Part shown: piece by piece, positions 11,574-57,239 of the stretch
Position numbering within the stretch: the stretch's first letter is position 1
Layout: each line of letters begins with the position of its first letter
Source: Candidatus Magasanikiibacteriota bacterium
GTDB lineage: Bacteria; Patescibacteriota; Patescibacteriia; Magasanikbacterales; UBA922
Assembly: GCA_003510435.1 (NCBI GenBank)
Contig: DOMK01000006.1
Span: 1 to 57,239 of the forward strand
Length of the DNA: 57,239 bases
Direction: 5' to 3'
Position numbers and translations under genes: made by a program
The notes under the pieces: generated by a model
What the model was told of the DNA's origin: nothing
The model's input: the letters and a program-made list of their open reading frames with translations, nothing else
The model's database searches: none

Positions 11574-11617
11574 ATAACATTGATTCCACTGATTCTAAAA
11601 ATGATTTCACTGATTAC
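11574..11617 (-). repeat. 38-bp AATCAGTGRAATC-N8-AATCAGTGGAATCAATG element, copy 1, ending 4 nt before the nucleotidyltransferase start
   Basis: Minus strand: gtAATCAGTGAAATCatttttagAATCAGTGGAATCAATGttat-ATG. Confidence 0.7.
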
Positions 11618-11618
11618 T

Positions 11619-11999
11619 TTAAAAATTCTTATAATTAGCAAATCTTTTGACTTCTAGACTTGAATTACAAAAATTTATTAATAAACCTACTTCTAATTTA
11701 CTAGCTTTTAAATATGATATTGTTTGAGTTTGAAATAACTTAGGCATTTCTCCTGATACGGCTTTTAATTCTACCACTACTTTACTATTCACAACTAAAT
11801 CCAACTGAAATGTGCCTACCCACATATTTTGATATTTAATATCAAACTGTTTTTCACTTTCTACACCTAAACCTTCATTTTCTAAAGCCACAATCATTGC
11901 TTTGTGATAGATTCTTTCTTGAAAACCTGGACCAATTTCACGATGTATTCTCATGGCTACACCAATTATTTGTCTAGTTAATTCACTTTCTTTATACAT
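11619..11999 (-). CDS. GxxExxY family protein (PD-(D/E)XK nuclease superfamily)
   Basis: 126 aa; G-x-x-E-x-x-Y signature (IGVAMRIHREIGPGFQERIYHKAM). Flanked on both sides by inverted copies of a 38-bp repeat. Confidence 0.75.
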   Translation of the reverse strand: MYKESELTRQIIGVAMRIHREIGPGFQERIYHKAMIVALENEGLGVESEKQFDIKYQNMWVGTFQLDLVVNSKVVVELKAVSGEMPKLFQTQTISYLKASKLEVGLLINFCNSSLEVKRFANYKNF

Positions 12000-12028
12000 A
12001 GATCTGTGAAATAAAATTAAACAACCAC

Positions 12029-12066
12029 AATCAGTGAAATCTCAAATTAAATCAGTGAAATCAATG
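12029..12066 (+). repeat. 38-bp AATCAGTGAAATC element, copy 2, inverted relative to copy 1; the pair brackets GxxExxY gene 1
   Basis: AATCAGTGAAATCtcaaattaAATCAGTGAAATCAATG. A degenerate unit gatctgtgaaat lies at 12001-12012. Confidence 0.7.
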
Positions 12067-12068
12067 TC

Positions 12069-14180: not shown

Positions 14181-14654
14181 TTATAAATGCCAATTTTTAT
14201 CTTGATATTTTTCTTTTTTAAATAATTTTTCAATTTCTTCTTTAATTAACATAATATCTTCTTTGTTCAAAGGTTCAAAATCATCATAAAAACCAGTTGA
14301 TCTGTCTGGTAAATAAACTGATTCTGGCCAAGGCTGTTTAAGAGCATTTTTAGCTCTACCTAAAACATGATAATGTAAAAAAGATTTTTTACCTTCCTTG
14401 GCTGCCCAATTCCCCATGTCCTGATAATTTATTTTTATCACTGGTATTCCTTGTTTATTCATAACTGTCTCCATAGCTTCTCCAACCATTATTGTCAAAC
14501 GCATCAACTCAATTGCCCCCCCTGGATCTAATTTTGTTCGGTCAGTAATTTCTTCATTTTTTATTCTTATCCTAATATGCCCACCATCATTTCTTGAAAC
14601 AAAGGGTTTTTCATGGGATTCAACTATAAAATTTTTTGTTTCGTATATTAACAT
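14181..14654 (-). CDS. HIT-superfamily-like protein (hypothetical)
   Basis: Weak HIT-like His cluster (…KSFLHYHVLGR…). Assignment tentative. Confidence 0.3.
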   Translation of the reverse strand: MLIYETKNFIVESHEKPFVSRNDGGHIRIRIKNEEITDRTKLDPGGAIELMRLTIMVGEAMETVMNKQGIPVIKINYQDMGNWAAKEGKKSFLHYHVLGRAKNALKQPWPESVYLPDRSTGFYDDFEPLNKEDIMLIKEEIEKLFKKEKYQDKNWHL

Positions 14655-14662
14655 AATGACTT

Positions 14663-14962
14663 TTATTTTTTAGAGTGATCTTTTATAATTAAAACTAAAT
14701 AATAAATCATGGAGTAAACCGCGACAGATAAAAATATTATACACACACCAATAAAAATATACCAATTTATAACATTATCAAAGGCTGTCCGCATATAAAA
14801 ACTCATCAGTAAAAAAAATGAAAAAAATACTGACATAAAAAGCATTCCAACAAATCCACGCACTTTGTTTTTATTTACTTTTTCTTTCAGTTCTTGTTTA
14901 TGCTCGCGATTATATTTTATTCCCTGATTAATTGTTTCAAAAAAATTTTCTATAAAGGTCAT
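14663..14962 (-). CDS. Small hypothetical membrane protein (2 predicted TM helices)
   Basis: ORF with ATG and hydrophobic stretches. No family recognised. Confidence 0.35.
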   Translation of the reverse strand: MTFIENFFETINQGIKYNREHKQELKEKVNKNKVRGFVGMLFMSVFFSFFLLMSFYMRTAFDNVINWYIFIGVCIIFLSVAVYSMIYYLVLIIKDHSKK

Positions 14963-16319: not shown

Positions 16320-16330
16320 AAAACTATCCA

Positions 16331-16414
16331 ATAGAACTCAAATTACCAAAATTACCAAAATCCACTAAAATAAATTTGCGAAAATTTAGGTAATTTAGGA
16401 AATTTGTGTTCTAT
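16331..16414. repeat. Second copy of the ATAGAACTCAAATTACC long palindrome, between two GT2 genes
   Basis: atagaactcaaattaccaaaattacc…ggtaatttaggaaatttgtgttctat. Confidence 0.7.
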
Positions 16415-27063: not shown

Positions 27064-27086
27064 AATTCTTGCTACAATACTCAAAT

Positions 27087-33679: not shown

Positions 33680-34873
33680 TTAAATCATACGCCTTACAGC
33701 TTCACTCAACTCATCAACATTCCCCGCCTCCACCAATTCCACATTTTTAATTCCACCAAAAATTTCCTTTACACCACCAGTATCAGAAGCAATCACACGC
33801 AAACCATGATGCAAGGCTTCGTGAATAACAGTTGGATTATTTTCTATACAAATAGACGGAAAAATTAAAACATCACATTCATTGTAAATTTCTTCTAACT
33901 TTTCTCCTTCTAGTCGACCGTGAACAATTACATTATTTTTATCTTTTGCCCATTCTTTCACTTCTTGATGCAAAATGCCATCACCCACGATATGCAATAT
34001 TACGTCATCCTGAGCGGAATGAGGAGCGGTAGCGACGAGTGCAGTCGAAGGATCCCCTTGTAAGTGAATCAAATCTGGGGATTCCTGACCCACTTCGTCG
34101 TGGGATTCGGAATTAACTTGATCCCAAGCCTGCATCAAAACACGGACACCTTTATGCTCCACCAAACTACCAACAAATAAAAATTTGATATTTGAATCTG
34201 AAATCACTTTCGGGTTATGGGTTATGCCTGCCTGCCGATGAGGCAGGGGTTTGGGATTTTCCAATACATAATTACTATACACAAAAAAATTTCTTTTTCT
34301 ATAAAACTCCCACAAAAACTTAGTCGGAGATATTACCTCATCCACATTTCTAAATTTTCTTTTCATTATCCACGAATATATTTTTTGCGCCAAATTATCT
34401 TTTTCATGATTCCACACCAACACCCCAGATGACTCAACTAACTGTACATCATGAATATAATGTCTCCAGTTAATTCCTAATTCTTTATTCCTTATTCCTA
34501 AACAATATCCTATTCCCATCAGATTGTGTGTTTCTACTAAATCTGGTTTTTCACTTTTCAAAATATTGTGAATAATCCGCCCGCTCCAACCATTAAAAAT
34601 ATCAATAAAATGCCAAATTAATTTCAAAACAAAATTATGTTTGGACAAATTTTTATAAGAAAAAATATTTGGTACCCAAAAACGATAAATATTTATACCA
34701 TCTTCAAAACTCTTTACTGGACACCAAGAACCCCAACCTGACCATGGTCGCCAAGTGATTACCACTACATCATTACCACCGTCAACCAATTCTCTAGCTC
34801 GCCTTTCTACCACTCTCTCGGCTCCACCCACAGCATAGGGTTTGTATAAATTGTTTATTAAAACGACTTTCAT
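33680..34873 (-). CDS. Glycosyltransferase family 4 carrying an in-frame repeat-element insertion
   Basis: GT4 C-terminal motifs (…IHEALHHGLRVIASDTGG…). A 37-aa segment (NSESHDEVGQESPDLIHLQGDPSTALVATAPHSAQDD) is encoded by a GC-rich repeat element at 34004-34115. Confidence 0.7.
   Translation of the reverse strand: MKVVLINNLYKPYAVGGAERVVERRARELVDGGNDVVVITWRPWSGWGSWCPVKSFEDGINIYRFWVPNIFSYKNLSKHNFVLKLIWHFIDIFNGWSGRIIHNILKSEKPDLVETHNLMGIGYCLGIRNKELGINWRHYIHDVQLVESSGVLVWNHEKDNLAQKIYSWIMKRKFRNVDEVISPTKFLWEFYRKRNFFVYSNYVLENPKPLPHRQAGITHNPKVISDSNIKFLFVGSLVEHKGVRVLMQAWDQVNSESHDEVGQESPDLIHLQGDPSTALVATAPHSAQDDVILHIVGDGILHQEVKEWAKDKNNVIVHGRLEGEKLEEIYNECDVLIFPSICIENNPTVIHEALHHGLRVIASDTGGVKEIFGGIKNVELVEAGNVDELSEAVRRMI
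34004..34115. repeat. Family-A element inserted in frame (111 bp) in the GT4 gene
   Basis: gtcatcctgagcggaatgaggagcggtagcgacgagtgcagtcgaaggatcccc…ggggattcctgacCCACttcgtcGTGGgattcggaatt. No stop codons in the gene's frame. Confidence 0.8.
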
Positions 34874-46850: not shown

Positions 46851-46879
46851 CACTAATCTTAACACTAATCGACACTAAT
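46851..46879 (-). promoter_or_regulatory. ATTAGTG x3 direct-repeat array ending 4 nt before the mraZ start codon; candidate MraZ operator
   Basis: cactaat units at 46851-46857, 46863-46869, 46873-46879. Minus strand reads ATTAGTGtcgATTAGTGttaagATTAGTGatct-ATG. Confidence 0.65.
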
Positions 46880-46921
46880 TTTTGATTTAACTTATAGAGG
46901 GACAGGCATTTCCTCCATAAA

Positions 46922-47299
46922 TTAATTTACTAATCTCTTATATCTAATTCCATCAGGTGTGATTAAAATTATTATTCCCAATTTTTTATTAGTAGCTTTT
47001 AAATATGTAAGAACTTGTTTTATATGCATCGGATAAAAATCATCTGCTACTTTTAATTCTACTACAATTTTATTTTCTACCAAAAAATCTAATGAGTAAC
47101 TCCCAACTTTCTTACCTTTATGAGTGACTCTTACTTTGTGTTCACGTTCAAAACTAAAACATTTTTTTGTCAATTCATCAGCATAAGCACGCTGATAAAA
47201 CAATTCGTAATGTCCGTATTTTAAACTGTTATAAACTGCATAAGCACAACCAACCAACTCATAACATTCATCTTTGTAGATTAAATCAACCCCGTTCAT
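46922..47299 (-). CDS. GxxExxY family protein (PD-(D/E)XK nuclease superfamily)
   Basis: 125 aa; GCAYAVYNSLKYGHYELFYQRAY signature. Flanked by inverted ATTAGTG arrays. Confidence 0.75.
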   Translation of the reverse strand: MNGVDLIYKDECYELVGCAYAVYNSLKYGHYELFYQRAYADELTKKCFSFEREHKVRVTHKGKKVGSYSLDFLVENKIVVELKVADDFYPMHIKQVLTYLKATNKKLGIIILITPDGIRYKRLVN

Positions 47300-47309
47300 A
47301 TCTCACCAC

Positions 47310-47392
47310 ATTAGTATAGGTTAGTGCTAAGATTAGTAGCTTCCAAATTATTCACACAATCACATTAGTGCAGATTAGTGTTAAGATTAGTG
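47310..47392 (+). promoter_or_regulatory. Two ATTAGTR x3 arrays upstream of GxxExxY gene 2, oriented towards the downstream + strand
   Basis: attagta/gttagtg/attagta (47310-47338) and attagtg/attagtg/attagtg (47364-47392). Confidence 0.55.
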
Positions 47393-47646
47393 GTATTCCC
47401 CATAAATCCCCACGTACTACCATTATACCCCACTTACACTACCTTTGCAACCCCAAAACCCCACTTATCCACAGCGTAAAGCTCCCTTCGGTCGCTACGT
47501 TGTAGACAGTCCTTCGCCCTCTGGACTACGGACTGTAAACTCTTATTTATTAAAAAAATAAATGACACCTCATTTTATAAATTTTTTGACAGAGTTAATT
47601 TTAAATAGTAATATTAATATATATAATTTTTAATTAAATATTCTAT

Positions 47647-47832
47647 ATGCAAAATGAAAGATGTGCTCGGGTAGTTCCAAGACAAGATGGTAAAAATAAA
47701 AAATGTGCCCATGGATCAGAAATAGGATGCAAAGAATGTCATAGAGCACACCCAGAAATATTAAAAAAAATTGACCCTAAATACAAAAATGAACCACCAA
47801 TTATGAGAGAAAGCGATCCATTTGAAGATTAA
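47647..47832 (+). CDS. Small Cys/His-rich (zinc-ribbon-like) hypothetical protein, 61 aa
   Basis: C-x13-C-x7-C-x2-C-H pattern. ATG start. Hairpin+T-run terminator at 47845-47877. Confidence 0.35.
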   Translation: MQNERCARVVPRQDGKNKKCAHGSEIGCKECHRAHPEILKKIDPKYKNEPPIMRESDPFED

Positions 47833-47877: not shown

Positions 47878-47985
47878 AAAAAAATTGTGTACAAGGAATT
47901 GACATTTAAAAAAAAATACGCTAGTGTATTTATAAGTTCGAAGTCAACCGCCATTCGTCAACCTCAAGAAAAAAAGGAGGGCACC

Positions 47986-48300
47986 ATGCCCGACCCCGCC
48001 GAAGTGACTGCTGTCGCCGTCGTACCCGAGCCGTTCGTGGCTCGTCACCCCGGGATCCTCGACCCCTGCGAATGTGGTGCCCCGCAGACGGTCCGCTCGT
48101 CGACGAGCGTGACCTACAAGTGCGGCCGCATCGACTCGACCGATCCCGCGAAGCAGGCCAGCGTCCCGTGCCCGAACGCGCCCGAGGCCGTCGAGGCCGA
48201 GCCCGTGAGCCTGGACGTCGCCGCCGACGCCCCCGTGCCCGAGCCCGTCGCCGCGCCCGTGGTCGAAGCGCCTGTGGTCGAAGCCGCGCCTGCCGCGTAG
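47986..48300 (+). CDS. Hypothetical protein (104 aa) in a ~68% GC island; Cys cluster then Pro/Ala/Val/Glu-rich tail
   Basis: Perfect SD AAGGAGG (47974-47980) 5 nt before the ATG. TTGACA (47899-47904)-N17-TAGTGT (47922-47927) promoter-like signal. Hairpin terminator at 48505-48532. The track ORF 47887 starts at GTG upstream. Confidence 0.45.
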   Translation: MPDPAEVTAVAVVPEPFVARHPGILDPCECGAPQTVRSSTSVTYKCGRIDSTDPAKQASVPCPNAPEAVEAEPVSLDVAADAPVPEPVAAPVVEAPVVEAAPAA

Positions 48301-48504
48301 CTGAAGGCCGAGGGAATTGGACCGACCGTCCTGCAGGAGGTTGGTCCAACGAGACAAAAATGCAGACGGAGGATACTTGGCGGTTGACTTGTGTCTGCAG
48401 GAATGGGGGGAGACGATGGATCGGGAGGGTCTATCGTCATTCGAGGCCGACAATTGTCTGCCTCCGTTCTTATGAAAATCAAATTTGGTTTTTAGAGGAA
48501 TATA

Positions 48505-48549: not shown

Positions 48550-49950
48550 TCAATTTCTTTTCAATTTCCGTAATGATCTCTGATATGTAATCGCAAATCT
48601 ATGAGCTTCATCTCTCACTTGGATTAACAAATTTTGATTTTCTTTTACCCATTCGGTAAATTCTCTTTTTTTATCAGTGGAATCTTTTCCAAAATCAGTG
48701 AAATCAATGTGGAATTCATTCTTTTTTCTATCCGGACCTTTAGCAATTCCCACAACGGGAATTTTAAATTTATTTGTTCTAATAATTTCCACGGCCTTAT
48801 TTACTTGCGAGACTCCCCCATCTACCAAAATTACATCAGGCAATTTCCAAATATCACCACTTTCTACTTTCAACTTTCTACTTTCAACTTGAGGAGCATG
48901 GCGCAGCCTGCGACGAATCACTTCTGCCATACAATCAACGTCACTTTGCCCTATTACAGTTTTTATTTTAAATTTTCTATATTGTGATTTGTTTGGATAA
49001 CCATTTTCAAATACCACCATACTACCAACCATACCAGTTGAACCAAGATTAGAAATATCATAACCTTCTATTCGAAGTTCTGAGTTCTGAGTTCTGAGTT
49101 CTGAGTTCTCCTGTAAAAAACTTTTATTCAACAAAGCAATGTCTTGTATTTTTTGTAAATTTTTTATTTGATCACGCAATCTTCCAGCTTCCTCAAACTC
49201 ATGAATTTTAGAAGACAATTTCATTTTCTTTTCCAAATCACGAATCAAACCTTTTTTATTACCACGCAAAAATTTTACTAATGGATTAATTACTTTCTTT
49301 TTATATTCAGACGAACTTATTTCCCCAGTACACACACCCAAACATTGTCCCATTTGACGATATAGACAAGGCTTACAAAGCTTACCAAGCTCACAAGGCT
49401 TACAATGTGATATATAAAATAATTTTCTTAAAAGTCCCATCATCTCGCGTGTTTTTAATCCTGGATACGGTCCAAAAATATGTTGAAACTGTTGTAATTG
49501 TTCTAGTTGTTGTAAATGTCTTTCACTTACAACATTTTTAACATCTACAACATTTGGAACATTACCAAGCTCATGCGCTCTAATCGTCTTAACTTGAGGG
49601 AAAACATCTTTTGTAATACAAATATAATTCCAACTCTTATCATCTTTCAAATCCACGTTATACTTTGGTTGATATTTTTTAATTGTATTCGCTTCCAAAA
49701 TAATCGCTTCCAAAACCGAATCAGTTTGTTTTATTTTTATATCCACCACCTCGTCGATCATAGCTTCGATAGGTCGCAATCCCCCTCCCTTTTTAAGGGA
49801 GGGCTGGGGTGGGTTCCGAAAATAACTCCTAACCCTGCTCTTCAAACTTGTCGCTTTACCAATATAAATCAACTCTTTCTGTTTATTATAGAAGAGATAA
49901 ATACCTGGTTCGTTGGGAAATGATTTGATTTTTTTTTCTAAATTAGCCAT
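48550..49950 (-). CDS. uvrC: Excinuclease ABC subunit C (short form lacking C-terminal HhH domain)
   Basis: GIY-YIG N-terminus (GIYLFYNKQKELIYIGKATSLKSRVRSYF), Cys-rich region, UvrC endonuclease core (…VRDEAHRFAITYQR…). Only 466 aa. Contains a heptanucleotide SSR and two small in-frame repeat insertions. Confidence 0.85.
   Translation of the reverse strand: MANLEKKIKSFPNEPGIYLFYNKQKELIYIGKATSLKSRVRSYFRNPPQPSLKKGGGLRPIEAMIDEVVDIKIKQTDSVLEAIILEANTIKKYQPKYNVDLKDDKSWNYICITKDVFPQVKTIRAHELGNVPNVVDVKNVVSERHLQQLEQLQQFQHIFGPYPGLKTREMMGLLRKLFYISHCKPCELGKLCKPCLYRQMGQCLGVCTGEISSSEYKKKVINPLVKFLRGNKKGLIRDLEKKMKLSSKIHEFEEAGRLRDQIKNLQKIQDIALLNKSFLQENSELRTQNSELRIEGYDISNLGSTGMVGSMVVFENGYPNKSQYRKFKIKTVIGQSDVDCMAEVIRRRLRHAPQVESRKLKVESGDIWKLPDVILVDGGVSQVNKAVEIIRTNKFKIPVVGIAKGPDRKKNEFHIDFTDFGKDSTDKKREFTEWVKENQNLLIQVRDEAHRFAITYQRSLRKLKRN
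48672..48709 (+). repeat. 38-bp AATCAGTGRAATC element, copy 4, in frame inside uvrC
   Basis: tatcagtggaatcttttccaaaatcagtgaaatcaatg; encodes HIDFTDFGKDSTDK on the minus strand. Confidence 0.7.
49076..49110. repeat. Heptanucleotide SSR (AGTTCTG)x5 inside uvrC (in frame as ELRTQNS repeats)
   Basis: agttctgagttctgagttctgagttctgagttctc. Confidence 0.85.
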
Positions 49951-50036: not shown

Positions 50037-50071
50037 ATTAGAAATTAGGTGAATTAGAAATTAGAAATTCA
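50037..50071. repeat. TTAGAAATTAGGTKAATTAGAAATTAGAAATT element, copy 2, overlapping the uvrA stop codon
   Basis: tattagaaattaggtgaattagaaattagaaattca. Confidence 0.6.
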
Positions 50072-52822
50072 CAATATTTTCTTTAAATATTGTCCTGTAT
50101 AACTATACCCAATTTTTGCCACAGTCTCTGGTGTTCCCACACAAACCACTTCTCCCCCTTTATCTCCGCCTTCGGGACCAAGATCAATAATCCAATCCGC
50201 GCATTTTATTACATCTAGATTGTGTTCAATCACCATTACTGTATTACCTTTGGAAACCAATTCTTGTAACACCCCAATTAATTTTTTTACATCTTCATAA
50301 TGCAAACCAGTCGTTGGCTCATCCAACAAAAACAAAGTCTTGGTTGTGCTAGGCTTGGCCAATTCGCGAGATAATTTTATTCGCTGGGCTTCACCACCTG
50401 ACAAAGTCTTGGCCGATTGACCAAGAGTAAGATAATCCAAACCCACTTCATTTAGAACTTTTAGTTTATCATAAATAAAAGGAATGTCTTCAAAAAAACT
50501 TTCGGCTTCTTCAATGGTCATATTCAAAACATCAGAAATATTTTTTTCTTTATAATGAATTTGCAAAGTTTCATTATTAAATCTTTTACCTTTACACACA
50601 TCACACACAATTTCTACACTGGGCAAAAAATGCATTTCAATTTCTAATGTTCCTCTACCCTCACAATTATCACATCTACCTCCCGGACGATTGAAACTAA
50701 ACCGGCCATTTTTGTAACCACGCATTTTGGCTTCGGGGGTGGAGGCATACAAATCGCGAATATGAGTCCAGGTACCAGTATAAGTCGCTGGATTGGAACG
50801 AGGTGATCGACCAATGGCGCTCTGGTCAATCTTAATGATTTTATCAATATATTCTGTATTTAAGACTTGTTTATGATCACCAACTTTTTTCTTTTTTTCT
50901 TCTGGTGCATGACCATGATAGTTTAATCTATTTGATACTGTTCGATATAAAATATCATGCATCAGAGTAGATTTGCCCGAACCAGACACGCCCGTGAGGC
51001 AAACAAATCGACGTAAAGGAATTTCTACATTAATATTTTTCAAATTGTGTTCACTCGCCCCTTTAATTTTTATTTTCGCGGTTGTATTATCCACCTTTCT
51101 TCTCTTTTCTGGTGCTTCAATATTTTTCTCTCGACGCAAATATTGTCCAGTCAAAGATTTTTTTGGATCACCAATTTTTAAACAATTTTTAAGTTCATCC
51201 TGAATGAGTCCAACAGGACGAATGAAGGATCTTTCGGAGCCAACATTTATCAAACTACTAATATTTTTTGTACCGCCATAGACTTTTCCTTCGAAAGATC
51301 CTTCACCCATTCGCTGTTGCTCAGGGTTCAGGATGAACTGTAAAGGTCCAGAATAGACTATCTCCCCACCATGCGTCCCCGCCCCTGGTCCAATATCCAC
51401 AATCCAATCACTAGCTAAAATTGTATCTTCATCATGTTCTACCACAATAATCGTATTACCCACGTCACACAAATTGCGTAAAGTCCGTACCAATTGATCA
51501 TTGTCTTTTTGATGTAAACCAATCGTCGGTTCATCCAACACATACAAAGCACCCACTAATTTTGTCCCCACTTGCGAAGCCAAACGAATGCGTTGGGCTT
51601 CTCCACCAGACAGAGTACCAGCCGTGCGATTGAGAGTCAGATAATGCAACCCAACATCATACATAAACTGCAATCTATTTTCTATTTCACGCAATACAGC
51701 TCCGGCAATTTCCTGTTCTCTCTCGGGCAAATTTAAAATTACCTCAGCAAAAAATTCACGTACCTCACCAATATCCATACTTACTACTTCCCAAATATTT
51801 TTGCCAAAGATCTTTACACTTAATGCATTGGCATTCAATCTTTTGCCCTCACACTTTGGACATACATCCTCACTAAACAAAGACTTGGTACCAAGACCAG
51901 TGCAATAATCACAATAACCATACGGACTGTTAAAACTAAACAATCTAGGTTCAATCTCTGGAAAACTAAAACCATCCTTTGGACAAGAATATTCTGTAGA
52001 AAAAATTTGTTCCCGACTTCGCTGAAGCTTCGTCGGGCAAGCTTCATCATTAGGATAAATCACAGTACAAAGTCCATTGGACAAATCCACGGCTGTTTCT
52101 ACTGCTTCAGCCAAACGCTTTTCTCCGTCACTATTCTGAATTCTAAAATCTGAAATCTGCAATTTGTCAATCACCACTTCAATCGTATGCTTCTTATCTT
52201 TACTAAGTTCAATTCTATTTTTCAAACTCTTCATTTTTCCATCTACTCGCACTTCCAAAAATCCAGAATTATAAACATCATAGAGCATTTGGTAATATTC
52301 CCCTTTTCTACCACGTACAACCGGCGCCAAAATTATCAACTCGTGGTTCGTAGTTCGTAATTTCGTATTTTTCGTAGTTCGTATCTTATTTACTGACTCC
52401 ATTATTCTTTCCTGCATTTGGTCAATCGTCATCTTCTCTATTTTTGTATTACAAAGTGGACAGTGAGGTTCACCAATTCGTGCAAACAAAACTCGTAAAT
52501 AATCATAAATTTCCGTAATCGTAGCTACAGTGGAACGTGGATTGGCACTATGCGCTTTTTGATCAATCGAAATCGCTGGCGACAAACCTTCAATCTCATC
52601 CACATCAGGTTTTTGCATCCCACCCAAAAATTGTCGCGCATAAGCTGACAAAGATTCTATATACCGACGTTGTCCTTCAGCAAAAATGGTATCAAAAGCT
52701 AGGCTCGATTTTCCCGAACCTGATAAACCTGTAAACACAATCATTTTGTTGCGTGGCAATTCAAGAGAAATGTTTTTTAGATTGTGTTCTCTAGCACCAC
52801 GGATTATTATTTTTTCTTGCAT
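50069..52822 (-). CDS. uvrA: Excinuclease ABC subunit A
   Basis: Two ABC ATPase modules ([14 protein letters not shown]; [10 protein letters not shown]), zinc-finger Cys pairs, 917 aa. Confidence 0.95.
52346..52386. repeat. TTCGTA-type short repeats in frame in uvrA (encode [12 protein letters not shown])
   Basis: ggttcgtagttcgtaatttcgtatttttcgtagttcgtatc. Confidence 0.7.
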
Positions 52823-53059
52823 GTAATTAAATGCTTACAAGGCCTACAAAGCTTTAAAGGCTTACGAAACCTGTCAGCTTTTTTAAATACAAAATACCCC
52901 TTTTTTGAGGTTAACTATAAACAACTTAAAATTTAAAGTGCATTACAATTATACCAAACAAGTATGATTTGTCAACCTGTTATAATTTACATCTTATTAT
53001 TTTAAAGCTATAATATTCACAATCAGCACTTTATTCTTTACTCCTTAATCCTTTATTTT

Positions 53060-53764
53060 ATGCGCATCACCTCCTCTGTTTATCTCGCAGTTAATATATT
53101 TGTAGTCTTATTTGGTTTGAGTTGTTTTATTTGGGGTTTTTATTTAGTAAAAGAAGGCTACAGAATAAAAGATACATTTCAAACTGCGACTGGTACTATC
53201 TATAATGTTATTATTAAACATGATTATAGTACAGAAATAGCCAATACCCAAGAATACTTGCAAATTGAATTCCCCTTGTCTAATGGAAAAAAAATTAGAT
53301 TTACCAATGATTATAGTCAAGAAAATAAAAAATATAAAATTGGTGATAATATACCAGTTTATTATAATCCAGAAAAACCAGAAAATGCCTACGTGGCTGA
53401 TTACCGCTTTTTGTTTGTACCCGGAGGAATATTATTATTCCTAGGTGGAGCTTTGATGATTTTTGCTGGACAATTAATTGTAAAATTTTTCTTTCGTAAA
53501 AAAACTATTGATAAATTAAAACAAACTGGCATAAAAATCCAAGCACCATTTATGGAAGCCAAAGAAGATTTTGAAACTACTATCATGGAAAAACATCCAG
53601 TTGTAATTCGCGTGGAAATGGAAGATGGCAGTTCATTATTTAGTGATAAAATCTGGAACTTTAATCCCGAAGCAATCAAACCAGGACACATGATCGATAT
53701 TTACTTTGACCCTATCAACAAAAAAGATTATTATATTGATCTAGAGTTTTTACAAAATAAATAA
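53060..53764 (+). CDS. Hypothetical membrane protein (two TM helices flanking a soluble segment)
   Basis: ATG ORF. Extended -10 TGTTATAAT at ~52978-52986. Terminator hairpin 53781-53813. Confidence 0.4.
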   Translation: MRITSSVYLAVNIFVVLFGLSCFIWGFYLVKEGYRIKDTFQTATGTIYNVIIKHDYSTEIANTQEYLQIEFPLSNGKKIRFTNDYSQENKKYKIGDNIPVYYNPEKPENAYVADYRFLFVPGGILLFLGGALMIFAGQLIVKFFFRKKTIDKLKQTGIKIQAPFMEAKEDFETTIMEKHPVVIRVEMEDGSSLFSDKIWNFNPEAIKPGHMIDIYFDPINKKDYYIDLEFLQNK

Positions 53765-53780
53765 GATTTTACAAGATAAC

Positions 53781-53813
53781 AAAAGACGCCTCGAATACTC
53801 GGGGCGTCTTTTA
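53781..53813 (+). terminator. Rho-independent terminator
   Basis: AAAAGACGCCtcgaatactcgGGGCGTCTTTT. Confidence 0.65.
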
Positions 53814-53864
53814 AATTTACTATCAGTCTAAATCAGTCTGTATAAATCTGTTTAAATCAATGCT

Positions 53865-55043
53865 TTACTTCAAAATATACGCTTTCATTGGCGGGAAGCC
53901 ATTAAAATAAACTGAACAATAAGACAAAGTATAAGCACCTGTAGAAAGAATAAACATCTTGTCCCCTTCTTTCATCCCCTTGGGAAATTTATACTGATAT
54001 TTTTCATACATAATGTCCATACTGTCACAAGTCGGACCAGCTAAAATAACTTTTTCTGTATTACGGTCAGTCTTTTTGGCTTTTTCCCAGAAGATTGGAT
54101 ATTTAATTGATTCATCAATAGTTTCTATTAAACCATTAAATTTACCCGCATCCAAATAAACCCATTTGTTTCTGTCCAAACTTGATTTTCTGGAAATCAT
54201 GACAATCTGGGTCACCATTACACCACAATTACCTACCATAGATCTACCTGGTTCAATCAAAATCTCAGGAAAATCAGTCGGGAAATCCTCTTGTAAAAAT
54301 CTGGTCACATATTTGGTATAGGTTTCCAAAGGATGAGTAGAGTGAACATATCTGGTTGGAAAACCACCACCCAGATTAATCGCTTTCAATTTTATCTTAT
54401 GTTGTTTCAAAGCATCAAATAAATATTTGCAGAAAGAAATTGCATTATCCCATGAACCAATATCACGTTGTTGTGAACCAACATGAAATGACAGGCCATA
54501 AGGAATAATATTCATTTTGCTCGCTTTTAATATCAACTGATAAATCATGTCTGGATGCGCCCCAAATTTTCTGGACAATGGCCAGTCTGCATTACCACCT
54601 TCCAAAATAATTCTAAATAATACTTTTGAACCTGGAGCATGTTTAGCAATTTCTTGTACATCTTCCCAAGAATCTGTGGCATACAGACGAATGCCTTTTT
54701 TATAAGCATAAGCAATATGTTCAACTTTCTTGATTGGATTGCCATAACTAAGACGTTCTGGTGGAATACCCAGGCGCAAACATTGATCTATTTCATAAAT
54801 TGAAGCCACATCAAAATTTGAACCTTTTTTCTCTAATAATTTTACAATCTCATCCATTGGATTGGCTTTGACTGCATAATAAATTTTGGCAAAAGGCATT
54901 AGAGAATGCAAATTGTCATAATTTTCCTCAACCTTCTTTGGATTGACAATTAAAAAAGGCGTTTCCTTGCCTTTAACAAATTCTTTAATTTTTTTGACTT
55001 CTTTGGTAGTTAAATACTTATAGATTGAATTTTTCTCTTTCAT
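53865..55043 (-). CDS. Fold-type III PLP-dependent decarboxylase (diaminopimelate/carboxynorspermidine decarboxylase-like)
   Basis: PLP-lysine context (YAVKANPMDEIVKLL) and Orn/DAP/Arg decarboxylase family-2 layout. 392 aa. Confidence 0.7.
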   Translation of the reverse strand: MKEKNSIYKYLTTKEVKKIKEFVKGKETPFLIVNPKKVEENYDNLHSLMPFAKIYYAVKANPMDEIVKLLEKKGSNFDVASIYEIDQCLRLGIPPERLSYGNPIKKVEHIAYAYKKGIRLYATDSWEDVQEIAKHAPGSKVLFRIILEGGNADWPLSRKFGAHPDMIYQLILKASKMNIIPYGLSFHVGSQQRDIGSWDNAISFCKYLFDALKQHKIKLKAINLGGGFPTRYVHSTHPLETYTKYVTRFLQEDFPTDFPEILIEPGRSMVGNCGVMVTQIVMISRKSSLDRNKWVYLDAGKFNGLIETIDESIKYPIFWEKAKKTDRNTEKVILAGPTCDSMDIMYEKYQYKFPKGMKEGDKMFILSTGAYTLSYCSVYFNGFPPMKAYILK

Positions 55044-55256
55044 AGAAATTTACCCCGCATTTTCAAGATGGCTTGAAGATGTTTTTGACTATTAATATTT
55101 GCCGTCAAGGGGATAAAAAATTAATAATACAATTATAACACCGTCTACGAAAAAATCAATAAAACTGTTGATAACCGTTTATTTGCGACGCAGGTGAGTG
55201 GAAAGCAAATTCGCATTTGATTTCCCGAGCCGAGGAGTAAATACAGGACAGATCCT

Positions 55257-57239
55257 TTACTTCTTCATTTTTCTAAGCTCTTTTAACTCATCTCTAAGTA
55301 TAGCTGCTAGTTCAAACTGCAAATCTTTGGCTGCCTCCCGCATTTTTTCTTCTTTATCTTTAATAATTTCCTCAATTGGCCTGCTATCACCAAGTAAATC
55401 CAATTCAACTGTTTTATTTTTCGTAGTTCGTGTTTTCGTATCTTTCGTATTTCGTATTCCAAATTCTTCCAAAATATTTTTTATGGTTTTTTGTATGGTA
55501 CGCGGAGTAATATTATGTTTTTTATTATATGCCAATTGAATCTTGCGCCGACGATCAGTTTCTTTAATCGCTTTTGCAATTGACTTTGTAATATTGTCAG
55601 CATACATCACAACCTGACCATTGACATTTCTGGCTGCTCGACCAATCGTCTGGATCAAACTAATTTCATTACGCAAAAAGCCTTCTTTGTCTGCATCCAA
55701 AATGGCCACCAGAGATACTTCTGGAATATCCAAGCCTTCACGCAATAAATTGACACCAACAATTACATCAATTTCTCCCCGACGCAATTTGGTAATAATA
55801 TCCACTCGTTCAATTGTTTTGATATCACTATGTAAATATAATGTTTTTATTTTTTTCTCTTTCAAATAATCATTCAAATCTTCAGACATTTTCTTTGTCA
55901 GTGTCGTCACCAAAACCCGCTCTTTATTTTTTATCCGCTCTTCAATTCTAATTATTAAATCTTCTACTTGAGATAAATTTTCCTTTCGTAATTTCGTACC
56001 TTTCGTATTTCGTATCCCTGTTATTGGTCTAATCACCACCTCTGGATCAATCAAACCAGTTGGACGAACTACTTGTTCTACTATCTTGTCACTAGATTTA
56101 ATTTCAAATTCACTTGGTGTAGCTGAAACATAAATCGTCTGATTAACTCTCTTTTCAAATTCTTTAAAATTTAACGGCCGATTATCACGTGCGCTTGGCA
56201 ATCTAAAACCATGTTCTACCAAAGTATCTTTGCGTGATTTGTCTCCGGCATACATTCCACCAATTTGAGGTACTGTGACGTGGGATTCATCTATAACTGT
56301 TAGGTAGTTCATTCCGATCCGCCGATGAGGCGGAGAGGAATCCCTTTTTGAAACAATATCATTTGCATTAAAAATATCTTTATTTAATTTGATTTCCATT
56401 GCATTAGAAAGGGATCTCTCGGCTTCGCCTCGAGATGACGCCAAAAAATAATCCAACAATGTATATGGTGGCTCCCCTGCCATTCGTCCATCAAAATGTC
56501 GAGAATAATTTTCTATACCATTGCAATAGCCAATATTTTTTATCATTTCCAAATCATATTTTACTCTCCGTTTCAAACGTTCGTATTCCAAAACTTTTCC
56601 TTGTTTTTTAAATAATTCTAATTGTGATTTTAATTCTTCTTTGATTGTTTTGAAAGCTCGTTCGCGCATTTCTGGACTAGCCACATAGTGTTTGGCTGGA
56701 AATAGCCACATATCATTGCTTTCTACTTTTACTTTTCTAGTCAATGCATCTAATACCTCTATAATCTCTATACCCTCTCCTATTTCTAATCTATATATTA
56801 CTTCTTCGTTTACTGGCATTACTTCAAACACTTGTCCGCGTAACCGAAAAGTTCCCCGTTTCAAATCAGAATTCGTGCGTTCAAATTGCATAGCAATTAA
56901 TTGCGCCAACAAATCTTCACGATTTAATATTTGCCCTTTTTCCAAATGCAAAACAATTTTTTCATATTCTTCTGGTGAACCAAGACCGTAGATGCAAGAG
57001 ACTGAAGCGACGATAATAACATCTTGACGAGTCAAAAGTGCTTGGGTACAAGCATGACGCAGGCGATCAATCTCTTCATTTATTTGCGCTTCTTTTTCTA
57101 TATAAGTATCACTACCCGGCATGTAAGCCTCAGGTTGATAATAATCATAATATGACACAAAATATTCTACGGCATTCTCAGGAAAAAATTCTCTAAATTC
57201 ATTACACAGTTGCGCAGCCAAAGTTTTATTATGAGCAAT
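55257..57239 (-). CDS. uvrB: Excinuclease ABC subunit B, N-terminus beyond the window end
   Basis: Helicase motifs (DESHVTVPQIGGMYAGD…), C-terminal UVR domain (…AAKDLQFELAAILRDEL…). Carries a 135-bp in-frame repeat-element insertion just before the DESH motif and two TTCGTA-repeat insertions. Confidence 0.9.
   Translation of the reverse strand: MAHNKTLAAQLCNEFREFFPENAVEYFVSYYDYYQPEAYMPGSDTYIEKEAQINEEIDRLRHACTQALLTRQDVIIVASVSCIYGLGSPEEYEKIVLHLEKGQILNREDLLAQLIAMQFERTNSDLKRGTFRLRGQVFEVMPVNEEVIYRLEIGEGIEIIEVLDALTRKVKVESNDMWLFPAKHYVASPEMRERAFKTIKEELKSQLELFKKQGKVLEYERLKRRVKYDLEMIKNIGYCNGIENYSRHFDGRMAGEPPYTLLDYFLASSRGEAERSLSNAMEIKLNKDIFNANDIVSKRDSSPPHRRIGMNYLTVIDESHVTVPQIGGMYAGDKSRKDTLVEHGFRLPSARDNRPLNFKEFEKRVNQTIYVSATPSEFEIKSSDKIVEQVVRPTGLIDPEVVIRPITGIRNTKGTKLRKENLSQVEDLIIRIEERIKNKERVLVTTLTKKMSEDLNDYLKEKKIKTLYLHSDIKTIERVDIITKLRRGEIDVIVGVNLLREGLDIPEVSLVAILDADKEGFLRNEISLIQTIGRAARNVNGQVVMYADNITKSIAKAIKETDRRRKIQLAYNKKHNITPRTIQKTIKNILEEFGIRNTKDTKTRTTKNKTVELDLLGDSRPIEEIIKDKEEKMREAAKDLQFELAAILRDELKELRKMKK
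55419..55458. repeat. TTCGTA-type short repeats in frame in the uvrB C-terminal linker (encode RNTKDTKTRTTKN)
   Basis: tttcgtagttcgtgttttcgtatctttcgtatttcgtatt. Confidence 0.7.
55984..56016. repeat. TTCGTA-type short repeats in frame in uvrB (encode IRNTKGTKLRKEN)
   Basis: tttcgtaatttcgtacctttcgtatttcgtatc. Confidence 0.7.
56309..56443. repeat. Family-A element, complete copy, inserted in frame (135 bp, 45 aa) in uvrB
   Basis: Left arm cattccgatCCGCCgatgagGCGGagaggaatcccttttt. Right arm agaaagggatctctcggcttcgcctcgagatgacgcc. Encodes ASSRGEAERSLSNAMEIKLNKDIFNANDIVSKRDSSPPHRRIGMN between YTLLDYFL and YLTVIDESH. Confidence 0.85.

What the first reader, a model, noticed from the sequence alone, without database searches (positions are those of the whole stretch)
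52346..56016. All three NER genes carry in-frame low-complexity or repeat insertions; uvrC also lacks its HhH domain
uvrA (52346-52386), uvrB linker (55419-55458) and uvrB core (55984-56016) each contain TTCGTA-period repeats encoding (R/K)(N/T)TK-type peptides. The core copy inserts ~14 aa relative to the E. coli sequence VRPVATQVDDLL. uvrB additionally hosts the 135-bp palindromic element. uvrC contains the SSR, an in-frame 38-bp element copy (48672-48709), and a hairpin-encoded extra segment in the GIY-YIG domain (49781-49810, NPPQPSLKKGGGLRPIEA). UvrC is only 466 aa and ends without the (HhH)2 domain. The clustering of mobile or repeat DNA in the uvrABC region (48.5-57.2 kb) is striking.
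Basis: partly seen in the sequence, partly recalled or inferred. Interest (0 to 1): 0.55.

Follow-up and report, generated by a model that had tools for sequence, protein, structure and literature searches.

The report
Repeat DNA inserted in-frame in repair genes
In this uncultured Magasanikbacteria (CPR) genome the three excision-repair genes uvrA, uvrB and uvrC carry in-frame copies of small repeat elements that normally sit between genes; the genes are still under strong purifying selection, and the missing UvrC tail is an old trait of the whole lineage, not damage to this genome.

Summary
Three copies of a ~38-nt TACGAA array sit in uvrA and uvrB, all in the same frame, against none expected by chance. 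uvrB also carries a 135-nt palindrome. uvrC carries a GC hairpin, several 7-18-nt arrays and a solo "38-bp" arm.

The interpretation needs correcting in four ways.
- The (HhH)2-less UvrC is clade-wide and old.
- The genes are not decaying. dN/dS against a 91-95%-identical relative is 0.05 (uvrA), 0.07 (uvrB) and 0.14 (uvrC).
- The elements are not specific to excision repair. RsmH and two glycosyltransferases in the window also carry them, and elsewhere the TACGAA array sits in Tgt, TsaE, IleRS and others.
- The TACGAA array is one arm of a hairpin repeat found widely in Patescibacteria, and as arrays in Bacteroidota. It normally lies just after stop codons.

Orthologues carry different repeat families at the same loops and linkers, and the closest relative lacks most of the window's copies, so turnover is recent and recurrent. 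Indels are about five times denser in the repair genes than in neighbouring genes (P about 0.02).

Best reading: selfish DNA like the Rickettsia palindromic elements, kept only where it reads in-frame as a hydrophilic peptide in a permissive loop. This is a new variant of a known kind.

The parts
48550..49950 (-). uvrC, 466 aa: GIY-YIG, UvrC_M, UVR and RNase H-like domains, with no (HhH)2
   Evidence: Pfam and PDB matches. It scores 308.7 against TIGR00194, above the 285.45 cut-off. All 120 closest homologues have the same architecture.
50069..52822 (-). uvrA, 917 aa, which also lacks the ~90-aa insertion domain
   Evidence: PDB alignment E=0. Chain residues 331-422 of 9gxk_A have no counterpart, and there is no PF17755 hit.
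55257..57239 (-). uvrB, running off the window end (721 aa in L001)
   Evidence: E=8e-240 to 9gy7_E.
52340..52384 (-). TACGAA array copy in uvrA, encoding [15 protein letters not shown]; +13 aa at the start of the UvrB-binding domain
   Evidence: (family D3). At the same site the closest relative has an (AAAGTC)n array instead.
55416..55457 (-). TACGAA array copy in the uvrB linker between domain 3 and the UVR domain, encoding IRNTKDTKTRTTKNK
   Evidence: The same element sits at this site in L122, L124, L008 and at least 11 of 120 orthologues.
55971..56015 (-). TACGAA array copy in the uvrB loop between domains 1a and 3 (+15 aa, IRNTKGTKLRKENLS); a near-canonical left arm GGGATACGAAATACGAAAGGTACGAAATTACGAAA
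   Evidence: It is absent from the closest relative and present independently in P0250.
56310..56444 (-). 135-nt compound palindromic element in uvrB (+45 aa, residues 327-371, just upstream of helicase motif II DESH)
   Evidence: (family D1: 5 copies in the window). 40 of 121 orthologues carry some insert at this site.
51164..51331 (-). ~52-aa hairpin insert in the uvrA linker between the two ATPase modules (arms 51223-51250 / 51278-51305)
   Evidence: I1; 14-bp stem, z=-3.1. 50 of 120 orthologues have inserts here.
52013..52042 (-). 30-nt GC hairpin insert in uvrA ([10 protein letters not shown]), unique to this genome
49777..49803 (-). GC hairpin insert (CCCTCCCTT AAA AAGGGAGGG) in the UvrC GIY-YIG domain, +9 aa
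   Evidence: An identical 18-aa peptide occurs in the non-sister orthologue P0004. Low pLDDT at residues 50-56.
49076..49109 (-). AGTTCTG x4.9 heptamer array in the UvrC linker between the UVR and RNase H domains (ENSELRTQNSELR)
   Evidence: pLDDT <50 at residues 270-289.
48859..48890 (-). ACTTTCT/ACTTTCA array in the UvrC RNase H domain loop (42-nt insert APQVESRKLKVESG)
   Evidence: absent from the closest relative. pLDDT <50 at residues 355-365.
48674..48710 (-). Solo arm of the '38-bp element' in UvrC (HIDFTDFGKDS)
   Evidence: family D5. It belongs to the same family as the inverted arms 11577-11615 / 12029-12067 around a GxxExxY gene. It is absent from the closest relative.
49481..49562 (-). 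Period-9 and period-18 arrays in the UvrC middle region (NVPNVVDVKNVV, LQQLEQLQQFQ)
   Evidence: 52 of 120 orthologues have inserts here, four of them the TACGAA peptide.
46851..47392 (-). GxxExxY / PDDEXK_3 gene (46922-47299) inside a hairpin whose arms are (CACTAAT)n arrays; an insertion relative to the closest relative
   Evidence: (I8).
11577..12067 (-). Second GxxExxY / PDDEXK_3 gene (11619-11999) inside a hairpin whose arms are the '38-bp element'
   Evidence: (I5, D5).

Best explanation
The segments are copies of small non-coding repeat elements that abound in this Magasanikbacteria genome and its relatives. They have landed inside uvrA, uvrB and uvrC and survived because they add a multiple of three bases, read as a hydrophilic and mostly basic peptide, and lie in surface loops or inter-domain linkers.

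There are two kinds.
- Hairpin (palindromic) elements: the 135-nt element in uvrB, the 14-bp-stem element and the 30-nt GC hairpin in uvrA, and the GC hairpin in uvrC.
- 'Core plus spacer' arrays: 3-5 copies of a 6-7-nt core separated by 1-3 variable bases. The TACGAA array is the best example. In other Patescibacteria it is normally one arm of an intergenic hairpin that sits right after a stop codon. Inside genes only a single arm is found, in the sense orientation, because the other arm would encode hydrophobic F/V-rich sequence or a stop codon.

The same few loops of UvrA, UvrB and UvrC are occupied by different repeat families in different species, and they differ even between genomes of 91-95% protein identity. 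Copies are therefore gained, lost and replaced quickly, while the rest of each protein is tightly conserved.

Shown: the anatomy, the copy families, the insertion sites, the turnover, the purifying selection and the usual intergenic habitat.
Inferred: that the copies arrive by insertion or by local template switching or gene conversion from nearby copies, and that selection on the encoded peptide explains the frame, the orientation and the recurrent sites.

The loss of the UvrC (HhH)2 tail and of the UvrA insertion domain are separate, ancient, clade-wide reductions.
For: Dispersed families:
- The TACGAA motif has 3 hits in the window against 0 expected.
The hits cluster in particular Patescibacteria and Bacteroidota genomes.
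- The 7-9-8 spacing and the GGATACGAAAT start are conserved across these genomes.

Usual habitat:
- In 53 Patescibacteria loci there are 89 clusters. 55% are inverted pairs, 56% lie within 60 nt after a stop codon, and 10% lie inside ORFs.
- Only 11 of 166 strict hits lie in long ORFs. Nearly all of those are in sense orientation. The hosts are UvrB, TsaE, an RlmI-like methylase, IleRS, Tgt and a GT1 glycosyltransferase.

Permissive sites:
- The inserts fall at gaps against solved UvrA, UvrB and UvrC structures.
- They coincide with the low-confidence segments of the UvrC model.
- The same sites carry inserts of at least 5 aa in 36/120 and 50/120 UvrA orthologues, 40/121 and 46/121 UvrB orthologues, and 17-52/120 UvrC orthologues. 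The insert sequences are unrelated and typical of translated repeats.

Turnover:
- The closest relative lacks most of the window's copies and has others of its own. All indels are clean multiples of 3.

DNA-level rather than protein-level conservation:
- The linker element keeps CGA and ACG codons (rare in AT-rich genomes, by my own knowledge; not measured) and about 90% nucleotide identity in four species, while the flanking codons drift and the junction offsets differ.
- Element-bearing orthologues are scattered over the UvrB tree.
- Copies within one genome resemble each other most closely, as in P0250.

Selection intact:
- dN/dS is 0.053 (uvrA), 0.072 (uvrB) and 0.139 (uvrC), against 0.02-0.13 for ten neighbouring genes.
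Against: - No target-site duplication or transposase was found for the in-frame copies, so the mode of arrival is unproven.
- The same family at the same site in non-sister lineages is more than random insertion plus a selection filter easily explains. This occurs for TACGAA in the UvrB linker and core loop, for the GC hairpin in UvrC (window and P0004), and for the 38-nt arm (window and P0003). It could reflect targeting, recombination between lineages, or a function.
- All three TACGAA copies in 57 kb lie in repair genes and none is intergenic, unlike the usual habitat.
- The enrichment test rests on one genome pair and 13 genes (P about 0.02, post hoc).
- Some arrays (AGTTCTG, ACTTTCA) could have grown in place by slippage rather than by insertion.
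Confidence: 0.7

Rival explanations
1. The repair genes are under relaxed selection or are decaying in a reduced symbiont-like genome, and junk DNA accumulates in them. The truncated UvrC is part of that decay.
For: uvrC evolves 2-3 times faster than its neighbours (dN/dS 0.139; 78-80% aa identity against 91-95%) and has the highest repeat load. UvrC lacks (HhH)2 and UvrA lacks the insertion domain.
Against: All three ORFs are intact. uvrA and uvrB have dN/dS of 0.05-0.07, like ClpB, MraY and ODC. Many catalytic-domain residues are invariant across 18 UvrC orthologues. The HhH-less architecture is conserved over many 50%-identity clusters, so it is a stable functional form. Every indel is a multiple of 3.
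Confidence: 0.05
2. The segments are old, lineage-specific protein features, for example basic flexible linkers useful for DNA binding, that merely look repetitive. They are conserved at the protein level and have nothing to do with mobile DNA.
For: The UvrB linker is K/R/T/N-rich and of similar length in all 121 orthologues. The linker TACGAA copy is shared with the closest relative and with several other species. The absence of HhH is indeed ancient.
Against: The identical nucleotide element, down to third codon positions and rare CGA/ACG codons, occurs in intergenic hairpins of many genomes and in unrelated proteins such as Tgt, TsaE and IleRS. Most copies are absent from a 91-95%-identical relative. 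Other families in the same genes have intergenic copies in the window (families D1 and D5).
Confidence: 0.1
3. The arrays are functional cis elements that are selectively kept in genome-maintenance genes. Examples would be DNA-uptake sequences, which in Neisseria and Pasteurellaceae occur as inverted pairs after genes and are enriched in repair genes, or binding arrays for an RNA- or DNA-binding protein.
For: The nucleotide sequence and the 7-9-8 spacing are conserved across species and even phyla. Inverted pairs sit just after stop codons. The element recurs in UvrA, UvrB and UvrC of many species. All 3 copies in the window are in repair genes. Indels are enriched in repair genes. The core-plus-spacer design resembles known protein-binding arrays; this is my own knowledge (TRAP, omega heptads, met boxes) and was not tested.
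Against: Density is low (3 per 57 kb), far below the roughly one per kb I recall for uptake sequences. Many different families with the same design coexist in one genome. Different cores occupy the same site in close relatives. An unbiased scan finds the element mostly in non-repair hosts. No cognate protein is known.
Confidence: 0.07
4. The arrays arose where they are by replication slippage (ordinary simple-sequence expansion) and are unrelated to one another.
For: AGTTCTG x4.9 is a perfect heptamer run (100% matches) and ACTTTCT/ACTTTCA is perfect at period 14. Heptamer repeats are the commonest long simple repeats in bacteria (Mrazek 2007, as cited in PMC4679880).
Against: The three TACGAA copies share an irregular 7-9-8 spacing and 79-89% identity over 38 nt. 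The same pattern recurs in dozens of genomes. The 38-nt arm and the 135-nt palindrome are not tandem repeats at all.
Confidence: 0.08

Closest known systems
Rickettsia palindromic elements (RPEs; Ogata et al. 2000, 2002, as summarised in PMC10969869)
   Same: They are small dispersed repeats inserted in-frame into unrelated housekeeping genes. They are translated as extra peptide segments compatible with the fold. They occur in a reduced genome and come in several families per genome.
   Different: The host phylum differs (Patescibacteria/CPR). Part of the elements here are not palindromes but single arms built of hexamer-core arrays of 30-45 nt, against about 150 bp for RPEs. The same orthologous loops are hit repeatedly by different families. 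Most copies of the TACGAA family are intergenic, whereas nearly half of RPEs are intragenic. Sequence relatedness to RPEs was not tested.
REP/BIME, ERIC, Correia, BOX and other bacterial MITE-like hairpin repeats
   Same: They are intergenic imperfect palindromes placed just after genes, often as inverted pairs, and are occasionally intragenic.
   Different: The arms here are internally repetitive (a 6-7-nt core with a 1-3-nt spacer). No RAYT or IS partner was identified. A target duplication was seen only, and ambiguously, for the gene-bearing GxxExxY cassette.
Heptamer and other long simple sequence repeats: cyanobacterial STRR, and TAACTGA repeats of Beggiatoaceae, Cyanobacteria and Bacteroidetes (MacGregor 2015, PMC4679880)
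   Same: They are short arrays of 2-6 copies of a ~7-nt unit, mostly intergenic and close to gene ends. They are patchily shared between distant phyla including Bacteroidetes, and are occasionally in-frame at the periphery of proteins. Their function is unknown.
   Different: The period here is variable with a conserved spacing pattern. The arrays usually come as inverted pairs forming hairpins. They lie mostly after stop codons rather than just before start codons. In-frame copies sit in the middle of essential domains.
DNA uptake sequences (Neisseria DUS, Pasteurellaceae USS). The comparison rests on my own knowledge; no paper on them was read here.
   Same: They form inverted pairs downstream of genes, have solo copies within coding regions in preferred frames, and are over-represented in genome-maintenance genes.
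   Different: A DUS is one motif at about one copy per kb and is specific to a family. Here density is low, many families coexist, and the element is shared across phyla.
Canonical UvrC, and Cho
   Same: UvrC here has the GIY-YIG 3'-incision domain, the UVR (UvrB-binding) domain and the RNase H-like 5'-incision domain.
   Different: It lacks the C-terminal (HhH)2 DNA-binding domain. By my own knowledge (not checked here), 5' incision by E. coli and T. maritima UvrC needs that domain. Unlike Cho, it keeps the C-terminal nuclease domain.

Membership tests
RPE-like in-frame selfish repeats | The element belongs to a dispersed multi-copy family | tested here: met
   The TACGAA array has 3 copies in the window and at least 119 loci elsewhere. 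The 135-nt palindrome family D1 has 5 copies and the 38-nt family D5 has 3-4 copies.
RPE-like in-frame selfish repeats | Inserted in-frame in a conserved protein-coding gene without disrupting it | tested here: met
   Intact ORFs, indels in multiples of 3, and dN/dS of 0.05-0.14.
RPE-like in-frame selfish repeats | Palindromic (hairpin-forming) sequence | tested here: inconclusive
   Met for the uvrB 135-nt element, the uvrA 51215-51312 element and the uvrC 49783-49803 hairpin. Not met for the TACGAA and 38-nt copies, which are single arms with no self structure.
RPE-like in-frame selfish repeats | Insert lies at a surface or loop position compatible with the fold | tested here: met
   The inserts fall at gaps against solved UvrA, UvrB and UvrC structures and in low-pLDDT segments of the UvrC model. 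Positions were not inspected on 3-D coordinates.
RPE-like in-frame selfish repeats | Sequence homology to RPE families 1-10 of Rickettsia | not tested
Homology is unlikely given the host and the composition.
MITE | Terminal inverted repeats | tested here: inconclusive
   Intergenic TACGAA elements are inverted pairs. The copies in the repair genes are solo arms.
MITE | Target-site duplication | tested here: inconclusive
   An ~12-nt duplication TTTATGG(G/A)GGAA flanks part of the GxxExxY cassette. Only a trivial 3-nt repeat (GAA) flanks the uvrA 30-nt insert.
MITE | A cognate autonomous element or transposase with matching ends | tested here: inconclusive
   No IS was found. GxxExxY (PD-(D/E)XK) genes sit between arms of the same design, and one of them abuts a TACGAA arm (L099). 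Whether that protein mobilises anything is unknown.
Simple tandem (heptamer) repeats / STRR-type | Head-to-tail copies of one short unit | tested here: inconclusive
   Met for AGTTCTG x4.9 (period 7) and ACTTTCT/ACTTTCA (perfect at period 14). TACGAA has a conserved core but a fixed irregular 7-9-8 spacing.
DNA uptake sequence | A single motif at very high genomic density | tested here: not met
   3 copies in 57 kb, with many coexisting families.
DNA uptake sequence | Preferential uptake by the competence machinery | not testable with these tools
   This needs an experiment.
UvrC (TIGR00194 / canonical) | GIY-YIG, UVR and RNase H-like endonuclease domains | tested here: met
   (308.7 bits against a cut-off of 285.45).
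UvrC (TIGR00194 / canonical) | C-terminal (HhH)2 domain | tested here: not met
   There is no HhH hit and the protein ends 4 residues after the RNase H domain. The domain is absent in all 120 closest homologues and present in more distant compact relatives.

The most novel reading that the evidence does not exclude
The 'core plus spacer' arrays may be the arms of a so far undescribed class of hairpin elements, which would also include the TACGAA array, the 38-nt arm, and the CACTAAT, AATTCTG and GACGGAT families. The gene-bearing members of this class carry a GxxExxY / PDDEXK_3 nuclease gene in the loop. Gene-less hairpins and solo arms, including those sitting in-frame in uvrA, uvrB and uvrC, would be their non-autonomous derivatives or footprints.

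This would give a mechanism for the patchy, cross-phylum spread of heptamer-type repeats in Patescibacteria, Bacteroidota and perhaps Cyanobacteria and Beggiatoaceae, for which MacGregor 2015 reported that no mechanism is evident.

Evidence so far:
- Both GxxExxY genes in the window sit in such hairpins.
- One of them is an insertion relative to the closest relative.
- About 25 of 32 metagenomic GxxExxY genes are flanked by inverted arrays that score above all 30 shuffles.
- One GxxExxY gene abuts a TACGAA arm.
Probability: 0.2. Interest if true: 0.7.

Novelty: new variant of a known kind. Interest (0 to 1): 0.45.

Why it matters
In-frame colonisation of essential genes by selfish repeats is the textbook oddity of Rickettsia. 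My searches of the held paper library found no report of it in the Candidate Phyla Radiation. Seeing it there, at the same loops in many species and with rapid replacement of one repeat family by another, would make it a general route of protein-loop evolution in small genomes.

It is also a practical warning. Length variation and "low-complexity" segments in CPR proteins are often translated repeat DNA.

The work also shows that a large CPR clade runs nucleotide excision repair with a UvrC lacking its (HhH)2 domain and a UvrA lacking its insertion domain. That is directly testable in vitro and bears on what the minimal UvrABC machine is.

Finally, the link between repeat arms and GxxExxY nuclease genes offers a testable lead on the origin of heptamer-type repeats.

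Tried and rejected
- **Rfam.** A scan of the whole window at gathering scores, and of the uvrC-mraZ spacer in the window and in L122 at permissive E-values, found no known RNA family. The window has no tRNA genes.
- **LexA/SOS boxes.** I considered this because uvrA and uvrB are SOS genes. The published Bacteroidetes motifs (GGA-N5-TTC, CTAA-N5-TTAG; PMC8565304) do not resemble the array, and the copies lie deep inside coding regions.
- **Assembly artefact.** Rejected, because the ENA and JGI assemblies are identical over 18.7 kb and relatives share the features.
- **Pseudogenisation.** Rejected by dN/dS.
- **Literature.** Searches for CPR plus palindromic or in-frame insertions, for UvrC plus Patescibacteria, and for GxxExxY found nothing that describes these features.
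- **DNA of the closest UvrB orthologue.** P0241 could not be fetched because the sample has no file.
- **GC-rich island.** The 62-79% GC island downstream of uvrC could not be identified.

Full report
**Source and gene map.** The window comes from a Candidatus Magasanikbacteria (Patescibacteria/CPR) contig. The same sequence is present in an ENA assembly (145 kb contig) and a JGI assembly (149 kb contig), and the two are identical to the window over the 18.7 kb compared. On the minus strand lie uvrC (48550-49950, 466 aa), uvrA (50069-52822, 917 aa) and uvrB (55257 to the window end; 721 aa in L001). A DUF3592 gene and an ornithine/DAP decarboxylase gene lie between uvrA and uvrB. G+C is about 33%.

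**Check of the observation.** The three TTCGTA/TACGAA clusters are real.
- The hexamer occurs 23 times on that strand, and 13 of those lie in the three clusters. There is no other cluster in 57 kb.
- The strict motif TACGAANTACGAANNNTACGAA hits exactly these three places. None of 100 dinucleotide-preserving shuffles gave any hit.
- The copies are 79-89% identical over 38 nt and share an irregular 7-9-8 unit spacing.
- All three are read in the same frame, ATA CGA AAT ACG AAA = I R N T K.

Inserts were then sized against solved structures.
- UvrB has a 45-aa insert at residues 327-371 (window 56310-56444). This is the 135-nt palindromic element, and it lies a few residues before helicase motif II.
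- UvrB has a 15-aa insert at residues 470-484 (55971-56015) in the loop joining domain 1a to domain 3.
- The UvrB linker copy (55416-55457) lies in the flexible linker before the UVR domain and replaces it rather than lengthening it much.
- UvrA has +13 aa at the TACGAA copy.
One is a 10-aa, 30-nt GC hairpin (52013-52042). The other is a ~52-aa insert (51164-51331) between the two ATPase modules, whose DNA forms a 14-bp perfect stem.
- UvrC has a 9-aa insert in the GIY-YIG domain made by a 9-bp GC hairpin (49783-49803), and an insert in the RNase H-like domain.
- UvrC also carries arrays of period 7-18 at 49076-49109, 48859-48890, 49481-49519 and 49528-49562, and a copy of a 38-nt dispersed element at 48674-48710.
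- UvrC has GIY-YIG, UVR and RNase H-like domains and stops four residues after the last one, with no HhH.

**The missing HhH domain is a clade trait.**
- All 120 best UvrC homologues, named Magasanikbacteria or Patescibacteria where named, are 403-534 aa. They have the same Pfam set without HhH and end at the same ...YQRSLRKIK position.
- In a library clustered at 50% identity, most of the best 150 representatives are 398-530 aa. For most of these the match runs to within about 10 residues of their C-terminus.
- Six compact relatives of 472-500 aa at 38-43% identity still carry a C-terminal HHH_5/HHH_2 domain. Four relatives of 403-431 aa do not.
- The loss is therefore an old event inside this radiation, not a truncation in this genome.
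- Likewise UvrA lacks the ~90-aa insertion domain: residues 331-422 of the solved chain have no counterpart and there is no PF17755 hit. None of the 120 homologues lists that domain.

**What the TACGAA array is.**
About 17 hits would be expected for equal base frequencies (my own estimate).
- By my reading of the record titles, 53 loci are Patescibacteria (Magasanik-, Moran-, Uhr-, Parcu- and Saccharibacteria) and 41 are Bacteroidota. Several hits often come from one genome.
- The Patescibacteria copies share a consensus GGATACGAAATACGAAAnnTACGAAATTACGAAA. They very often occur as an inverted pair with a short loop, that is, a ~75-nt hairpin.
- Of 89 clusters in the 53 Patescibacteria loci, 55% are inverted pairs, 56% lie within 60 nt after a stop codon, and only 10% lie inside ORFs of 80 aa or more.
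- Of 166 strict hits, 11 lie well inside long ORFs, nearly all in sense orientation. By my reading of the translations, the hosts are UvrB, TsaE, an RlmI-like methyltransferase, IleRS, Tgt and a GT1 glycosyltransferase.
- The element is thus normally an intergenic, REP-like hairpin. The copies in the window are the rare intragenic class, and each is a single arm with no self-structure.
- The second arm read in frame would give F/V-rich peptide, and one antisense frame contains TAG. This explains why only sense single arms survive inside genes. That step is inference.

**Insertion hot spots across orthologues.** Alignments of 120 homologues of each protein show that the window's inserts sit at sites where many orthologues also carry extra residues.
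- UvrA: 36/120 at the TACGAA site and 50/120 at the linker between the ATPase modules.
- UvrB: 40/121 at the palindrome site and 46/121 at the core loop.
- UvrC: 17-52/120 at five sites.
- The extra peptides are unrelated between species. They have the look of translated hairpin repeats (VIPTEAKRSGGI, LRSAQNDK, PLLGGVGEG, SLGMT) or of translated short arrays.

The TACGAA peptide (I/V)RNTKxTK(L/V)R(N/T)TK itself recurs widely.
- It is in the UvrB linker of at least 11 of 120 orthologues, scattered over a neighbour-joining tree.
- It is in the UvrB core loop of P0250.
- It is at two sites of UvrC in five species.
- It is in the UvrA inter-module linker of P0198.

At the DNA level, the linker element in the window, L122, L124 and L008 keeps about 90% nucleotide identity. 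This includes third positions and the CGA and ACG codons, which I take to be rare in AT-rich genomes (not measured). Meanwhile the flanking codons drift and the junction offsets differ by 2-4 codons. Within P0250 the linker and core copies resemble each other more than either resembles copies in other genomes. This points to repeated insertion or conversion at the DNA level, not to simple protein-level conservation.

**Recent turnover.** L122 is a fully syntenic locus from the closest available genome, with 91-95% protein identity for most genes.
- It has the uvrB palindrome and the linker copy.
- It lacks the uvrB core copy, the uvrC ACTTTCA array, the 38-nt arm and the uvrA 30-nt hairpin.
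- It carries a different hairpin in the uvrA inter-module linker and an extra palindromic insert at UvrA residue 222.
- At the uvrA TACGAA site it has an (AAAGTC)n array with the same 7-7-9-8 architecture but a different core.
- All of these differences are clean multiples of three.
- A 27-nt TTGAAAA-type array in rsmH is likewise specific to the window. It lies about 430 nt from an intergenic array of the same family. The uvrB core copy lies 558 nt from the linker copy. Both hint at short-range copying, but this is inference.

**Selection.** Nei-Gojobori dN/dS between the window and L122 is 0.053 for uvrA, 0.072 for uvrB and 0.139 for uvrC, against 0.022-0.128 for ten neighbouring genes. The repair genes are therefore functional and constrained, and only uvrC is somewhat faster. 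The AlphaFold2 model of UvrC (mean pLDDT 71.6) has its low-confidence segments at 50-56, 130-137, 270-289 and 355-365, which are the inserted repeats. One further low-confidence stretch (78-105) is not explained by an insert.

**Is the repair-gene cluster special?**
- Not exclusively. In the window RsmH, a GT2 glycosyltransferase (15243-16331, three elements) and a GT4 glycosyltransferase (33680-34873) also carry in-frame arrays. About 20 arrays are intergenic.
- The load is nevertheless higher in the repair genes. Nine of 26 intragenic arrays lie in the 12% of coding DNA that is uvrABC.
- Against L122 there are 16 internal gaps (9 merged events) in 2104 aa of repair proteins, against 3 in 3046 aa of ten neighbours. 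ClpB, which is the same length as UvrA, has no internal indel. My own binomial estimate gives P of about 0.02, and the test is post hoc.
- The simplest reason is that these multi-domain proteins have several long flexible linkers, and that the UvrB linker is basic in all species, which the TACGAA peptide mimics. Targeting or a function cannot be excluded.

**Link to GxxExxY genes.**
- The 38-nt element in uvrC belongs to the same family as the two inverted arms (11577-11615 and 12029-12067) that enclose a PDDEXK_3/GxxExxY gene.
- The second GxxExxY gene (46922-47299) is enclosed by inverted (CACTAAT)n arms that are 93% complementary.
- This second cassette is absent from L122, and a ~12-nt sequence is duplicated at its borders.
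- In 32 metagenomic GxxExxY loci with enough flank, the best inverted match between the upstream and downstream flanks exceeded all 30 shuffles in about 25. The arms are again arrays of a 6-7-nt core with a variable spacer, for example AATTCTG, GACGGAT and ATGAT.
- One Moraniibacteriota GxxExxY gene abuts a TACGAA arm (L099).
- I found no description of this in the searchable literature.
- It suggests, but does not prove, that the arrays are arms of a class of hairpin elements whose gene-bearing members encode this nuclease.

**Comparison with what is known.**
- The closest parallel is the Rickettsia palindromic elements, which are selfish repeats inserted in-frame in housekeeping genes (PMC10969869).
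- The array architecture and the patchy cross-phylum distribution recall heptamer repeats such as TAACTGA in Beggiatoaceae, Cyanobacteria and Bacteroidetes. The function and spread of those repeats are unexplained (PMC4679880).
- Here the differences are the host phylum, the single-arm core-plus-spacer elements, the recurrent use of the same orthologous loops by different families, and the mainly post-stop-codon habitat.
- I therefore file it as working like RPEs, not as a member of that family.

**Verdict.** It is partly wrong: the HhH loss is ancient and unrelated, there is no relaxed selection, the elements are not specific to repair genes, and the TACGAA array is a conserved dispersed element rather than local low complexity.

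Noticed in passing
window 47950-48450: A 62-79% G+C island lies in a 33% G+C genome, directly downstream of uvrC. An ORF at 47987-48299 on the + strand follows an AAGGAGG ribosome-binding site and encodes a Pro/Ala/Val/Glu-rich peptide with Cys motifs. A possibly structured stretch and a terminator-like hairpin follow. There is no Pfam or Rfam match. The closest relative has a different, non-homologous GC-rich island at the same place (L122 ~14290-14690). Possible readings are foreign (host?) DNA or an unknown structured RNA.
   Followed up: partly
window 46851-47392 and 11577-12067; loci L125-L158: GxxExxY / PDDEXK_3 nuclease genes sit inside long hairpins whose arms are arrays of a 6-7-nt core with a variable spacer. 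This holds for both genes in the window and for about 25 of 32 metagenomic loci. The 46851-47392 cassette is an insertion relative to the closest relative, with an ~12-nt duplication at its borders.
   Followed up: partly
window 50069-52822 (uvrA): UvrA lacks the ~90-aa insertion domain (no PF17755 hit, and no counterpart of residues 331-422 of PDB 9gxk_A). None of the 120 closest homologues lists that domain either, so this clade has a reduced UvrA as well as a reduced UvrC.
   Followed up: partly
window 47396-47504: A 109-nt stretch upstream of mraZ is 95% identical to the closest relative, far above the surrounding spacer. It contains five spaced GTGGGG/TGGGG repeats around a TATAAT box. 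From my own knowledge of E. coli MraZ this looks like MraZ operator repeats. The GxxExxY cassette is inserted between it and the mraZ start codon.
   Followed up: no
window 24664-27084: An 806-aa ORF without any Pfam match contains five short arrays, including an inverted pair at 25021-25051 / 25063-25089. It may be a poorly conserved protein or partly non-coding DNA rich in repeats.
   Followed up: no
L122 9172-9705: The closest relative has an extra 177-aa gene without Pfam hits between DUF3592 and uvrA. It is absent from the window.
   Followed up: no
loci L005 7090-7356, L023 3446-3647, L121 6567-6813: In two Bacteroidota MAGs (L005, L023) and one Magasanikbacteria MAG (L121) the TACGAA unit forms higher-order tandem arrays with periods of about 40, 41 and 60 nt and 4-6 copies, instead of hairpins.
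   Followed up: no
loci L010, L018, L022, L034, L052, L055, L064, L075, L081, L082, L095: Several MAGs labelled 'uncultured Gammaproteobacteria' carry the Patescibacteria-type TACGAA hairpins and in-frame copies (TsaE, IleRS). The taxonomic labels may be wrong.
   Followed up: no
window 47649-47831 (+): A small 61-aa Cys/His-rich ORF (MQNERCARVV...CKECHRAHPE) lies between the GC island and the mraZ upstream region. Both assemblies call it as a gene, and its function is unknown.
   Followed up: no
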